NCBI RefSeq assembly: GCF_006345805.1
Contig: NW_021832984.1
Span: 1-52,343, forward strand
Direction: 5' to 3'
DNA from: Octopus sinensis
Taxonomy: Eukaryota
Length of the DNA: 52,343 nucleotides
In this document: positions 8,933-20,159 of the stretch, one piece after another
Layout of the letters: every line of letters starts with the position of its first letter
Numbering within the stretch: the first letter of the stretch is position 1
Position numbers and translations under genes: made by a program
Notes under the pieces: generated by a model
Databases searched by the model: none
Told to the model about the DNA's origin: nothing
The model's input: the letters and a program-made list of their open reading frames with translations, nothing else

Positions 8933-10187
8933 CACATCATACAACTACATATACGTGTGTGTATGTGTGTGCTTATGTAATCACTGTGTATCCGGACCTA
9001 AGCAACGAAAGCAATTACTTTCTACTCGGAGTCTGTTAGAATAATATCTTGTCTGTTTTTCATTTATTTCTTTTACTGTTTTATACATCAATAGCACTAG
9101 AAAATTGATTTTCTTAATAAAACTTAGGAATATGACACATGTGTCGGACACAAAGTGACATTTACCTGGTAGTAATAATGTCGGTAGTGAAGTAACAATT
9201 TACCGATAATGTGTTAAGTAAACGGTATGTCAGAGAGCAAATGCAAGACAAAACGTAACGTGTGTAGCAAAATATTTGAATTTACATTCATTAGAATATC
9301 TGAAATTATCAAATATATTTAGTTTGAAACCAATAACTTGGGATAATTGATCTGCATTAAAGATATAAGAATATGTAAATTGGTAATTTTATAAATATGA
9401 AAATAAATGAAATGTACTTCTAACGAAACGTATTTTTAATTCAGTTTGAAATGAGTGAATGAAGTTAGAGACAAGCCATGTCTTGTGAACTTTTGTGACA
9501 AAAAAATGTCGACGTTCAGATGAAATTAGATTATTTATAAACAGAATATTACGCAATTGTTTAATGATTGAATTATGATGTTCTTGTTGTTATTGTGTTA
9601 GTAGGGGAGGGTGTGATGATGGGGTTAGTAATAATGTTGATATTGTTGTGATGGGGCTGGTGGTGATACATGTGACGGCAATGGATGTCGTAGTGTTTAT
9701 GTGGAGGAGGTCGAATCAGTGTCTGTGAATGGACGTTGCTGCTTTTTTTCTCTCATTGATATTTCTCTGTTGATGTAAAGATAAAGGAAAGTATACTCTG
9801 ACTTGGTGTATACCTCAAAGTGTTATAATCTCAGAGTGTTGTTATAATTTTATAATCATATGTTATGTATATGTTCTGCCTGTCTCTCTGTTTGTCTGTG
9901 TGACCGTGTGCTTGTATGTATGCATGTTACATATACAAATATTCTGGGATTGAACAAATATGAAACAATAAGCGCGTGGATTTGATTCTATTCTATTTAG
10001 GTGATATTTTGGCTGATGTCATTGTTGAAAATCAAATATGTATCTATAGTAAACGGGATGAGTTGAGGGGAAGAAGTTTTAAAATAAGGCGTCACCCGTA
10101 TGTTGAAATATGTGTTGTCTAGGGTATCAGATATGATATCTTTATATACATAAAACTGAGAATGTGTGTCTGTCTGTCTGTGTGTTA

Positions 10188-10473
10188 CCCTAAAACTTGA
10201 GAACTACACAACTAATTTCATTCAAATTTTACACATGCCTTACTTAGGGTCCGGGGAGTGTCATCGGCAAAAATTTTTTAAACTTTTTCCCAGGATGAGC
10301 CCACAGCAATATCATATCTTCTCCACCACGATTCCCTAAAACTTGAGAAATACACAACCAATTTCATTCAAATTTTACACATGCCTTACTTAGGGTCCAT
10401 GTAGTTTCATGGGCAAACAAATGTTCAACTTCTTGCCTAGAGTGAACCCATAGCAATATCATATCTTCTCCAC
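10188..10473 (+). repeat. ~146-bp tandem duplication inside the putative Helitron
   Basis: CCCTAAAACTTGAGAA..TTTCATTCAAATTTTACACATGCCTTACTTAGGGTCC..GCAATATCATATCTTCTCCAC starts at 10188 and again at about 10334. Confidence 0.85.
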
Positions 10474-10699
10474 TATTTCAGTATTACGTGTTAAAAGTGA
10501 AACAAAATCATTTCTCTATTTTATGTCAGATACTTTCACTTTAACAATAAAAATAATAATAACAATTGAATTATATGTAGTAAGTAATAATTAAAATCAA
10601 ACTAAAGTATAATATAATCGTAAAATAACAAAAGTAAAAATAGCAATTGGCATAAAATTGCATCAATGATTTGAACTTGAATAAGTGGTTTCACATGAA

Positions 10700-10836
10700 T
10701 GGGAATAAATTAAAAATAAAATTAGCGTGCAGAAATGGAATAGTCCAGTTGGATAATAAAAAATTAAATTAAAGAAAAAACTATTGTCTATAAAGTATAC
10801 AATGTAGAGAAAAAAGATTTGAACACATCGAGGAAA
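10700..10836 (+). pseudogene. 5' part of an interrupted Tx1-type ORF1 fragment (insertion host)
   Basis: Translates KEKTIVYKVYNVEKKDL, which aligns with ENKTVTYRTQDKNTNKL of the ORF1 at 12737. Continues at 19606. Confidence 0.6.
10824..10836 (+). repeat. Target-site repeat 1 (CACATCGAGGAAA)
   Basis: Recurs at 12596, 14382 and 19606, at every element junction. Confidence 0.9.
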
Positions 10837-12595
10837 TTTACCCAAGTGTGTTGTTATCTGTGATTAGACGTTGAAATTTTGTTGTGTAAAGTGATTAATA
10901 TCGCGCGAGGCGTTTGCCTCCACGTGTGGAAACCTTCCGAAGAAGGTGAATTGACCCTCTAGTCATGGCGACTTACGCGGGGGTCACGGGAAAGAAAAAT
11001 AATGATTCGTCGATAATCGTGAAGGATGTTTTCTTTGAGAAGAGTAAACTCAAAGAATACGAAAAGCTATTCAAAAGGGAGGGTGATAGCGTGAAGCTGG
11101 TCCCCCCGCGAAAGCAAAGGAGGACAAGGAAACAAACTGTAACGTATAGAACCCAGGACAAAAGTACAAAGAAACTGGCAAGAGTGGAGATAGCAGAGAT
11201 CGAAAAATGTCTGGGAGACATAATGGATAATCGACCTACGTGAGTAGAGGAAAAAAATTTGGTACGGTGGAGGTGAGATGTGCAACGGAAGAAATTGCAG
11301 CCTCACTGGCTACCACTGTTCTAAGAGCGGAAACATTTATAATGTGGCCCTCATACAAGGGAAGAAGAGGGGTCCGGGTTAAAATCCCGAATATACCCCC
11401 AGAAGTAAAAACAGAATGGCTGGCAACAGCTATTCTAGGAGCAGCAGAAGAGGAAGTGGAGGTGGAATCCTTTAAGGAGTCCAACGCAGTAAATTGGAGA
11501 GGATATGGGGTAGAACTGTGTTTGATGGCCACAAAAGAGGACATTGAAAGGTTCCCCTATAGAATAGAAATCGAAGACGAGAAAACCCTCAGTGTAATTG
11601 TAGAGGGAAGAAAGCCAAACTGCTACTTGTGCGGGACAAGGGGGCACATTAAAAAAGAGTGCCCGTTATATGAATTCATGGCGGAGTATGAGAAGGAAAA
11701 TGAAGAAAAGAAGAATACGGTAAATGAAAAAGAAAACATAGAAAAGGAGACAAAACAACAAGAGAAAGGAAATAATAAGTCAACGAAGGAAAAAGAAATA
11801 AAAGAAAAGAAAGAAATAGAACCAAAACAGAGTCAGGAAAAGAAAAAGGAAAAAGAAACAACAGGAAAAAAACAAGAGAGAGAACAGAACCAAACGAAAA
11901 GAAAAGACGGCACACAAAAAGAAAAAGAAAAGGAACATAAAACACGAGAGAAAGAGAGAACAGACAAAGAACCAAAAAGACAAGAGAAGGAAGAAGAAAG
12001 AAAAGAAGGCAAAAAGAGAGAAAGAGAGAAACAAAGAGAGGAGAACAAGGAAGAAATAAGCCCGAAAAGAAAACGAGAGAAAACGTAGGACGGAAACAAG
12101 ATTACTACAAGTTAATAACCTTCCATTTCAGCCCCGAAATGAAGGAATTGACATGTAGTATGGAGGGACATGTGTGGGTCAACAGGATGACTGATCAGTG
12201 GCAGGAGACTGCTCTGATCCCCGAAGAAAGAGTCGCTGAGTTCCTCAGAGCAGCTGAGAGAGTGTAATTTTTACACGTGTTCGAGTGAAGAGCGGCTGCC
12301 TGAGGGCTCAGTGATTGACTTTAGAGACTTGAAAAGTATTATGGAATACGTGTGAGATTGTGAGAGGAGAGAGAAGAAAGAAGAGAAAAAGAAAAAAAAA
12401 ATTGTGAACTATAGGTGACGAAAATGTAACCTCTCGATTCCGGGGATCGAGTGGGCATTGCATCTCATTGTAATATTCTTTCATTTGTCATTTTTATTTT
12501 TATTTTTTTCCCTTCTTGTCATTTCGCTTTCTTATTTTAAGTTCCCCGATTGTATTGTCCCCTCTATGTTCGCCCCTTGTGGGTAGTAATAAAAT
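10837..12595 (+). mobile_element. ORF1-only non-autonomous Tx1-type retroelement, copy 1
   Basis: Single gag-like ORF, no EN/RT. 3' tail shared with the LINE at 14397-19605. Bounded by target repeats. Confidence 0.85.
10965..12354 (+). CDS. ORF1p (N-terminal domain, CCHC zinc knuckle, K/E-rich linker, C-terminal domain), frameshifted in this sequence
   Basis: Start MATYAGVTG; knuckle CYLCGTRGHIKKEC; K/E-rich region. After a frameshift near 12080 it continues ..DYYKLITFHFSPEMKELTC..WQETALIPEERVAEFL. Confidence 0.75.
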
Positions 12596-18900: not shown

Positions 18901-19361
18901 ACAGAGGAGCTCTACCTGTTCGGGATAAACTCGCAAGGCACGGTGGCCAAGACAGTCCGATATGTCCAAGATGCGGGCGGGATAGGAAACCGTCCCGCAC
19001 GCTATTGTTCATTGTCCGGACGTGTCTGCTGTGTGTTTATGCCGAACACCTGTTGTCAGGTACACGAAGAGTACAGCTGTCGACTGAGTCGATTACAAAA
19101 ATTGACCCACCGGATTTCCTCGTGAATGAAGGTAAGTTTCGTTTTCTCGTTGTAGTAGCAATTGCGAAAGAGGTGATATGGAAGACGAGAAAGAAAGGTT
19201 TACAGTCAGGCAAGTTCATCTCCGGCCCTGGTTTGATGAATTATTTCATCTTTCACCTGAAAAGGAAGATAGGGCTGGAGAGAATATGCCTGACTAGGAG
19301 AGTGTATGAAGAACGATGGAAGGATGTAGCACGAAAGTTGCGAGTGAAAGATACAACATAA
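15969..19361 (+). CDS. ORF2p APE endonuclease / reverse transcriptase / C-terminal zinc finger (several frameshifts)
   Basis: Motifs CLNVRGL, VLGDFN, YLDRILI, SDH, GKAPGLDGLP, FRPITLLNTELKILAK, LDQSKAFDRV, SVRQGCPLSPLLY, YADD, LSLKGR, CPRCG. Confidence 0.9.
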
Positions 19362-19605
19362 ATGTAATACAAGCGCAACCAAAAGTATCAGTGGGGAGGC
19401 GGGGCTCGTGGGGTCCGAGCTAAACCCGCACCCACTCCACCCGTAATGTCTTCCGGTCTGTCCCATCATTCGATTTCTGTCCATTTATTGTAATTCATGA
19501 AAATTTTTAAATCCGATTTATTGTAAAAACCCATTCGTTTGTCTGACCCCATCATCAGATTGTATTGTCCCATCTATGTTCGCCCCTTGTGGGTAATAAT
19601 AAAAT

Positions 19606-19895
19606 CACATGGAGGAAAGCACATTCGAAAAGTGTCTTGGTGCGACTATGAAAGGTATCTAATCAGAGGCGGTAAATTCGCCACAATAGAAGCAAGGTTC
19701 GAGTCAACGGAGCGTGCAAGGGAATACTCGACTCGAACTTGCAAAGTGGAAATATTTTATTTTTACGTAGGACGTCCCGGATAAAAATTAAAAATATCCA
19801 CCCTGAAGTAGAGGTAGGCTGGATTATAGCCACACTTCTATACAAGAGGGAGGACAAGATACAATTGATCGAAATTACAAGAGACGGGCTAACAA
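19606..19895 (+). pseudogene. 3' part of the interrupted Tx1-type ORF1 fragment (starts with target repeat 4)
   Basis: HMEESTFEKCLG / YLIRGGKFATIEARFESTERA / RIKIKNIHPEVEVGWIIATLL align with EIAEIEKCL / YVSRGKKFGTVEVRCATEEIA / RVKIPNIPPEVKTEWLATAIL. Confidence 0.8.
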
Positions 19896-20159
19896 TTCCA
19901 GTCTGTTATATATTTTGAGTATTGTTATCACTAGCGATATCAAGATATAACTTTGTATTTTGTATTGTATGTGTAGATGTATATATATAGATGTACATGT
20001 AATATGTACACATATATATACACATATATACATGCACTAGCACTATGACCCGGCAACGACGGGTCTTTAATGCTAGTTGTTAATAAATCTAAAGTATGGA
20101 ATTCATGACAAATACCCTGAAGTAATCAAAATGTGATAAAAAGAGAATTAGTTAAGTTA

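What the first reader, a model, noticed from the sequence alone, without database searches (positions are those of the whole stretch)
10139..20076. Three-layer nesting: Helitron > captured ORF1 fragment > site-specific Tx1 array
Seen: Helitron-type termini (A|TC.. and hairpin-CTAG|T) bracket the whole array. Removing 10824-19605 leaves about 1.16 kb containing a LINE ORF1 fragment. Known: Helitrons capture fragments, and Xenopus Tx1L/Tx2L target DNA transposons. Inference: a non-autonomous Helitron spreads a landing pad for this Tx1 family and might move the array as cargo.
Basis: partly seen in the sequence, partly recalled or inferred. Interest (0 to 1): 0.78.

Follow-up and report, generated by a model that had tools for sequence, protein, structure and literature searches.

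The report
Octopus LINEs stacked inside a Helitron
Three copy-and-paste jumping genes of an octopus sit one behind another at the same short sequence, which lies in a leftover piece of a related jumping gene's own code that is carried by an abundant repeat, likely a rolling-circle transposon, so that repeat likely serves them as a landing pad, a new twist on a known habit.

Summary
The anatomy is real. Helitron1-type ends (A|TC at 10139; hairpin and CTAG|T at 20076) bracket three LINE units, each preceded by a 13-15 bp repeat. Removing them leaves 1,156 bp.

Refinements: the array holds two families. A1 and A2 (1.8 kb) encode ORF1 only. B (5.2 kb) encodes ORF1 plus endonuclease-RT. They share little DNA beyond a 48-50 bp tail. 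The ORF1 remnant belongs to a third family, runs across the insertion point, and the target repeat is its own coding sequence.

The empty form is real and common. In two Octopus-like runs of different organisms, 32 and 16 contigs continue before 19606 with the letters left of 10824, and the remnant's summed contig depth is 10-92 times that of the inserted units (not a copy number). O. vulgaris A-type gene models often come in consecutive runs (15 of 25), which suggests arrays elsewhere.

Not shown: linkage to the Helitron 5' end, genome-wide specificity, an empty A|T allele, or movement of the array as cargo.

Tx1 LINEs that target abundant non-autonomous DNA transposons are known (Tx1D, Mariner-N4_AMi). 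A Helitron-borne ORF1 remnant as target was not found in my searches. Verdict: new variant of a known kind.

The parts
10139..10823 (+). 5' arm of the Helitron1-like non-autonomous element: TC start after an A, short microsatellite (about 10161-10186), two ~140 bp subrepeats (10188-10326, 10334-10473; 86% alike), AT-rich tract
   Evidence: sequence; self-BLAST; linkage to the rest in other copies not tested
10759..10823 (+). left part of the ORF1 remnant (third family, 'C'); weak likeness may reach back to about 10710
   Evidence: profile positions 40-59; 0 of 300 shuffles
10824..12595 (+). unit A1: ORF1-only non-autonomous LINE with zinc knuckle (ORF1 about 10965-12355, frameshifted); begins with a 13 bp copy of the target repeat with one mismatch
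   Evidence: closest to O. vulgaris P0201 type
12596..14381 (+). unit A2: second ORF1-only copy (ORF1 from 12737, frameshifted); 1,694 matches, 68 mismatches, 34 gap columns against A1
   Evidence: closest to O. vulgaris P0200 type
14382..19605 (+). unit B: full-length Tx1-like LINE; ORF1 about 14610-15960, ORF2 about 15969-19361 with AP endonuclease, RT and zinc-binding motif; both ORFs frameshifted in this copy; flanked by a 15 bp duplication (14382-14396, 19606-19620)
   Evidence: Pfam PF03372, PF00078, PF13966
19558..19605 (+). 3' tail shared by B, A1 and A2 (48-50 bp, about 96%), the likely signal for mobilisation of A by a B-type ORF2 protein
   Evidence: role inferred
19606..19620 (+). 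target repeat CACATGGAGGAAAGC, in frame with the ORF1 remnant; present once in the empty form
19606..19889 (+). right part of the ORF1 remnant; highly repeated; likeness to ORF1 ends at about 19889
19891..19893 (+). second place where a LINE tail is joined in other copies (three contigs of run X2)
   Evidence: joints 19602->19891, 19603->19893, 14378->19891; shorter side only 21 letters
19890..20076 (+). 3' arm of the Helitron1-like element: TA/TG-rich tract, hairpin 20047-20065, CTAG end before a T

Best explanation
An abundant 1.16 kb repeat of an octopus, likely a non-autonomous Helitron, carries a remnant of a Tx1-type ORF1, and a 15 bp stretch of that remnant is likely the preferred insertion site of a living Tx1-like LINE (B) and of an ORF1-only partner family (A). 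Steps: (1) shown: the remnant is highly repeated and exists empty; (2) inferred: rolling-circle copying of the Helitron spread it; (3) inferred from L1-clade biology: B's endonuclease nicks at the left edge of the repeat, reverse transcription is primed there, and a second nick 13-15 bp further on duplicates the repeat; (4) shown: B is flanked by a 15 bp duplication; (5) inferred: the left copy keeps its original upstream sequence, so the site is rebuilt and later elements land in front of earlier ones (B, then A2, then A1); (6) inferred: A, which has no RT, borrows a B-type ORF2 protein through the shared 48-50 bp tail. The Helitron supplies harmless landing sites passively; nothing here shows that it has moved a filled copy.
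For: Helitron1-type ends and best hairpin of 194 candidate ends. Remnant colinear across the insertion, with the repeat matching native ORF1 residues of relative P0296. Loose ends before 19606 in 32 contigs (X2) and 16 contigs (X16) match 10794-10823 apart from the A-run length. Summed depth 691,068 and 66,632 on 19606-19882, against 48,853 and 4,048 on B's last bin; 10-92 times the medians of A2, B ORF1 and B ORF2; still 320,026 and 56,725 on 19883-20159. Three insertions of two families at one base. A1/A2 differences recur in other O. vulgaris copies, so the two are different lineages. 15 of 25 A-type O. vulgaris accessions fall in five consecutive runs. No Rfam family at gathering score in 9000-21000, so the target is not a known RNA gene. 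Precedent in Tx1-Mar and SINEU (PMC4494074).
Against: No flank of an A or B copy elsewhere was seen, so preference is inferred from one locus and from accession order; 10 of 25 A-type accessions stand alone, identical proteins in a run may be isoforms, and one run may be this same locus. Contig depth is not a copy number, and the loose-end evidence covers only about 15-30 letters left of the junction. The shared tail has depth 341,610 and 98,089 at 12568, far above A's body and in X16 above the remnant, so many tail-bearing elements must sit elsewhere. Two raw runs with the species label of the best holder gave no depth on the remnant (73 and 13 partial reads in all); they also nearly lack the very abundant flank repeat, so they probably come from another species. 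A1 and A2 both start with the one-mismatch form of the repeat, which a simple duplication model explains only with an extra mutation.
Confidence: 0.6

Rival explanations
1. B and A recognise a short sequence wherever it occurs, or have a different main target. This repeat is hit because it is abundant, and the array grew only because each insertion rebuilds the site.
For: Flanks elsewhere unseen; 10 of 25 A-type accessions are single; the tail is shared with far more abundant elements, and tails are also joined at a second, dissimilar place, 19891-19893.
Against: Two families use the same base; the repeat occurs nowhere else on the + strand of the window; in Mariner-N4_AMi two dissimilar hot spots coexist with real target preference (PMC4494074 section 16).
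Confidence: 0.22
2. The ORF1 remnant was not captured by the Helitron. It is what is left of an older Tx1-type insertion into the Helitron, shortened by deletion and then spread with it; later LINEs target that relic.
For: The remnant has the same orientation as A and B. Its ORF1 likeness ends at about 19889, within a few bases of the place where LINE tails are joined in three X2 contigs. Bat Helitrons amplify retroposed inserts (PMC4224331).
Against: No tail remains after the remnant, and no convincing older duplication of 19893-19905 lies in 10139-10823 (best matches have 4 mismatches in 13). The joints have only 21 letters on the shorter side.
Confidence: 0.25
3. Only B and one A inserted; A1 and A2 arose by local tandem duplication or unequal crossing-over between the repeats.
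For: A1 and A2 are identical over their first 236 bases, including the one-mismatch repeat.
Against: Their amino-acid differences match two lineages present among other O. vulgaris copies (P0201 sides with A1 at 5 of 6 diagnostic residues and with A2 at none, P0200 with A2 at 4 of 6).
Confidence: 0.15
4. The multi-copy unit is not bounded by these ends: the ORF1 remnant is a repeat of its own and the TC start belongs to another element or is chance.
Against: Depth stays at the same order from the remnant into the 3' arm; strong hairpin; A|T junction; internal subrepeats in the 5' arm.
Confidence: 0.12
5. One reading: the filled Helitron moves as one 9.9 kb unit and spreads the array as cargo.
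For: Both ends are intact here; tail-to-19891 joints have depth 627.5, 185.9 and 96.8 where the lowest listed contigs have about 45-61, so they are multi-copy; precedent for small retroposed cargo in bats.
Against: Independent insertions at one site give the same junction words. This copy differs from nearly all contigs at several remnant positions (e.g. 19623, 19724), so it looks like an old copy. No second copy of this array with new flanks was seen.
Confidence: 0.12

Closest known systems
Tx1-Mar LINEs and SINEU in Mariner-N4_AMi of crocodilians (PMC4494074; passages and section 16 read)
   Same: Tx1-clade LINE plus a non-autonomous partner preferring an abundant non-autonomous DNA transposon; tandem insertions with a duplication between them; two dissimilar hot spots in one host element.
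   Different: Host here has Helitron1-type ends; the site lies in Tx1 ORF1-derived sequence; the partner is an ORF1-coding element, not an snRNA-headed SINE; preference there was counted genome-wide (90% for SINEU-3), here not.
Xenopus Tx1L in Tx1D (seen only as summarised in PMC4494074 and PMC1950540 passages; original papers not read)
   Same: APE-type LINE inserted at a fixed site in a non-autonomous DNA transposon.
   Different: Tx1D is described as piggyBac-type; the endonuclease specificity was shown biochemically there and is untested here.
Bat Helitrons carrying nested retrogenes (PMC4224331; passages read)
   Same: Retroposed inserts with duplications inside non-autonomous Helitrons; empty and filled forms.
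   Different: There the filled forms were shown to amplify (118 copies) and the inserts are single mRNA copies, not repeated targeting by a LINE family.
Non-autonomous Helitron1 / HLE1 (PMC11417382, PMC3789558; passages read)
   Same: 5' TC, 3' hairpin and CTRR, insertion between A and T, foreign fragment inside.
   Different: No autonomous partner or empty allele identified here.
Keno-type U2-targeting Tx1 elements (name from PMC4494074)
   Same: Loci L007 and L008, 39-40% identical in RT, end in U2 snRNA.
   Different: They form a separate clade in the quick tree; the site here matches no RNA family.

Membership tests
Helitron1 (HLE1), non-autonomous | 5' TC start | tested here: met
   10139-10140; weak on its own
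Helitron1 (HLE1), non-autonomous | 3' hairpin followed by CTRR | tested here: met
   z -4.25; best of 194 CTRRT sites
Helitron1 (HLE1), non-autonomous | inserted between A and T without duplication | tested here: inconclusive
   A at 10138 and T at 20077; no empty allele seen
Helitron1 (HLE1), non-autonomous | multi-copy, both ends shared among copies | tested here: inconclusive
Helitron1 (HLE1), non-autonomous | ends shared with an autonomous Rep-helicase element | not testable with these tools
   no genome held
Tx1 clade LINE (unit B) | ORF1 with zinc knuckle, ORF2 with AP endonuclease, RT and C-terminal zinc motif | tested here: met
   Pfam hits for ORF2; knuckle scored in A1 and visible in B's translation
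Tx1 clade LINE (unit B) | RT phylogeny within Tx1 | tested here: inconclusive
   quick tree of 67 rows (44 of 55 loci, 22 hand-picked of 120 listed proteins): B falls in a weakly supported 33-row group with U2-flanked L007/L008 and P0096, named TX1 protein by its source; best PDB match human L1 ORF2p, E 1.9e-33, ahead of R2; no curated Tx1L or L1 reference in the tree
Tx1 clade LINE (unit B) | target-site duplication | tested here: met
   15 bp on both sides of B; one copy in the empty form
Target-specific Tx1 family (over 20% of flanks in one repeat, criterion of PMC4494074) | share of genome-wide copies flanked by the target repeat | not testable with these tools
   flanks elsewhere not obtained; 1,595 loose-end rows not shown
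Target-specific Tx1 family (over 20% of flanks in one repeat, criterion of PMC4494074) | sequence-specific nicking by the endonuclease | not testable with these tools
   needs a cleavage assay
Internal-deletion derivative of B (unit A) | DNA identity to B at both ends | tested here: not met
   only the 48 bp tail at 96% and short ORF1 patches at 74-77% align; ORF1 34% identical in protein

The most novel reading that the evidence does not exclude
An Octopus Tx1-like lineage has specialised, genome-wide, on a piece of its own clade's ORF1 code that a Helitron amplified to thousands of copies; autonomous and ORF1-only families stack there in mixed arrays, and some filled Helitrons have since been copied on as composite units.
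Probability: 0.2. Interest if true: 0.7.

Novelty: new variant of a known kind. Interest (0 to 1): 0.46.

Why it matters
It would add a rolling-circle element to the list of transposons used as safe havens by Tx1 LINEs, with the twist that the recognised site is retrotransposon coding sequence. That shows a route by which a new target can arise: one mobile element amplifies a fragment of another. It also offers a young site-specific APE LINE with a defined 15 bp site and a natural ORF1-only passenger, a tractable pair for asking how specificity and trans-mobilisation are encoded. For octopus annotation, these ORF1 copies are being called as host genes.

Tried and rejected
No own genome was held, so empty and filled copies could not be counted. 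Exact DNA scans of metagenome, prokaryote and viral contigs gave 0 matches; the pattern held a base private to this copy. A protein search with a 50-residue piece of the remnant found nothing. Raw runs X23 and X24 did not hold the element. The 55 metagenome loci of RT relatives share no DNA with the element outside ORF2, and only two chance-level matches to the repeat. An RNA-gene target was rejected: 12 weak Rfam matches in 9000-21000, none at gathering score. A as a deletion derivative of B was rejected. The core ORF1 profile does not cover the left piece, so a second profile was built. The careful tree did not finish; the quick tree is reported. Look-ups of earlier findings by sequence, by place and by seven words found nothing. 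Literature searches listed no Tx1 family targeting a Helitron; the library lacks most subscription papers and Repbase reports, and the O. vulgaris repeat library itself was not among the one supplementary file held, so a prior description there is possible.
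Full report
Source. No genome was held. ORF1 of unit A matches proteins named Octopus vulgaris at 98-100% and ORF1 of unit B matches an O. sinensis protein, so the window is from an Octopus species (inference).

Outer element. The sequence shows A|TC at 10138|10139 and CTAG|T at 20076|20077. The stem 20047-20065 lies 7 nt before CTAG; 20030-20080 folds at z -4.25 and is the best hairpin upstream of 194 CTRRT sites in the first 36.4 kb. These are the Helitron1 features given in PMC11417382 (passages), which also warns that such signals alone give false calls. The 5' arm has a short microsatellite and two 140 bp subrepeats.

The array. A 13-15 bp repeat stands at 10824, 12596, 14382 and 19606, and at no other + strand place of the window with up to two mismatches. 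It separates three units. B (14382-19605) has ORF1 and an ORF2 with AP endonuclease, RT (E 2e-32) and a zinc motif (7 pieces scanned), and is flanked by 15 identical bases. A1 and A2 encode ORF1 only; they share with B a 48-50 bp tail and 34% ORF1 protein identity, so A is a separate non-autonomous family. All three copies are frameshifted. A1 and A2 differ at 68 positions, and their residue differences recur in other O. vulgaris copies: P0201 sides with A1, P0200 with A2 (28 proteins compared, 8 of them without overlap). Against that, their first 236 bases are identical. B's RT is closest to human L1 among solved structures and, in a quick tree, groups loosely with U2-flanked elements and a protein named TX1 (Rfam run on 40 of 55 loci). 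I call it Tx1-like; clade membership is not proven.

The remnant. Removing 10824-19605 leaves 1,156 bp that match 44 library proteins in blastx. Profiles built without window sequence (96 of 148 hits; 30 hits with N-terminal extensions) place positions 40-59 left of the array and 62-79 at 19606, with later positions following in order to about 19889. The left match beats 300 of 300 shuffles. Relative P0296 has similar residues at the repeat. So the array interrupts one continuous ORF1 remnant of a third family, and the target repeat is ORF1 code. No RNA family explains it.

Other copies. Window 12404-20713 was laid on 4 of 24 listed runs. X2 and X16 (contigs, two organisms, two studies) show loose ends before 19606 in 32 and 16 contigs whose consensus matches 10794-10823 apart from the A-run length: the empty form exists. 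Summed depth on 19606-19882 is 691,068 and 66,632, that is 10-92 times the medians over A2, B ORF1, B ORF2 and B's last bin, and 320,026 and 56,725 on the next bin, which holds the Helitron 3' arm. The tool states that this is no copy number; it shows only that the remnant is much more repeated than its inserts. X23 and X24 (raw reads, same label as the best holder) gave 73 and 13 partial reads and none on the remnant; they nearly lack the abundant flank repeat too, so I treat them as another species (inference). Only 20 loose-end rows and 15 joints were shown (1,595 and 84 hidden). Three X2 contigs join a LINE tail to 19891-19893, where ORF1 likeness ends; this may be a second hot spot, a deletion in a filled copy, or an older target. 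The tail itself is far more repeated than A (depth 341,610 and 98,089 at 12568), so other tail-bearing elements insert elsewhere.

Arrays elsewhere. Of 25 O. vulgaris accessions for A-type proteins, 15 fall in five consecutive runs (CAI9715245-249 and 251; CAI9739099-101; CAI9719596-597; CAI9729052-053; CAJ1099379-380) and 10 stand alone. Consecutive numbers suggest neighbouring gene models (inference). Identical proteins may be isoforms, but members of the longest run differ in sequence. Their flanks are unknown.

Mechanism. Most likely (0.6) a non-autonomous Helitron spread the remnant; B's endonuclease prefers the repeat; each insertion duplicates it and rebuilds the site on the left, so later elements land in front; A borrows a B-type ORF2 protein through the shared tail. 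The nicking and priming steps follow from established L1-clade biology and were not tested. Rivals: a short-motif preference not tied to this repeat (0.22); the remnant as a relic of an older insertion rather than a capture (0.25, compatible with targeting); local duplication of A (0.15); ends not linked (0.12); cargo movement (0.12, unsupported).

Comparison. PMC4494074 (passages, section 16) describes Tx1 families preferring Tx1D, Mariner-N4_AMi, Harbinger elements and LTR retrotransposons, tandem insertions around a duplication, two hot spots in one host, and rejects hitch-hiking; the word Helitron occurs 0 times in it. PMC4224331 (passages) shows bat Helitrons amplifying retroposed inserts. 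PMC13282606 (first third, passages, one supplement) counts recently active L1-Tx1 and Helitron families in O. vulgaris without mention of nesting. PMC12988792 (term search) has neither Tx1 nor Helitron. PMC1950540 and PMC3789558 were seen as passages. Nine searches listed no Helitron-targeting Tx1 family (see Tried and rejected for limits). Four unchecked notes of this scan describe LINEs at Helitron ends in other genomes; they concern terminal sites, not an internal ORF1 remnant, and are leads only.

Verdict. Observation confirmed; interpretation partly supported. The behaviour is a known kind; the host type and the ORF1-derived site are the new part, and the genome-wide specificity is unmeasured. 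Interest 0.46.

Noticed in passing
window 20165-20713: A very abundant repeat begins about 90 bp right of the Helitron end (summed depth 1.6 million in X2, 0.33 million in X16); it looks like a LINE 3' end on the minus strand; no Pfam match for its longest frame.
   Followed up: partly
window 12548-12595 (and the other two tails): The LINE tail, with one-base variants, is carried by a far more abundant family than A or B (depth 341,610 and 98,089 at 12568).
   Followed up: no
proteins P0210-P0220, P0003: A multi-copy 89-residue ORF, absent from the window, is fused to A-type ORF1 in four O. vulgaris gene models, and its variants seem to go with the A1 or A2 type; it may be a further family in mixed arrays. 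Likeness to A's C-terminus is not significant (E 0.15).
   Followed up: partly
window 19746-19801: Imperfect 56 bp palindrome inside the ORF1 remnant (z -3.14, 1 of 200 shuffles as good); meaning unknown, the stretch is AT-rich.
   Followed up: partly
window 20035-20077: The terminal hairpin extends so that the end is nearly symmetrical, with a CTRR on the minus strand as well.
   Followed up: no
window 36446-52343: Satellite of a 26 bp unit, 612 copies, 93% matches, running to the window end.
   Followed up: no
window 27955-29201: Mariner-type element: 40 bp inverted repeats at 90% and a transposase fragment, PF01359.
   Followed up: partly
window 7460-8757 and 22367-22466: Penelope-like element on the minus strand (weak GIY-YIG and RT matches); 100 bp of it recur inverted at 98% 14 kb away.
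   Followed up: partly
window 1-5470 and 34700-36300: Several fragments of other LINEs on the minus strand (endonuclease and RT matches; mutual likeness 71-87%).
   Followed up: partly
window 32472-33112: A 640 bp self-inverted repeat, 88% alike, next to a 1.1 kb TA tract.
   Followed up: no
L007:4675-4885, L008:5815-5977, L036, L027:9202-9356: RT relatives in metagenome contigs end in or lie beside U2 snRNA (L007, L008, L036) or near U1 (L027).
   Followed up: partly
runs X23, X24: Two raw runs with the species label of the best holder hold almost none of this region, even its most abundant repeats; the label may cover another species.
   Followed up: no
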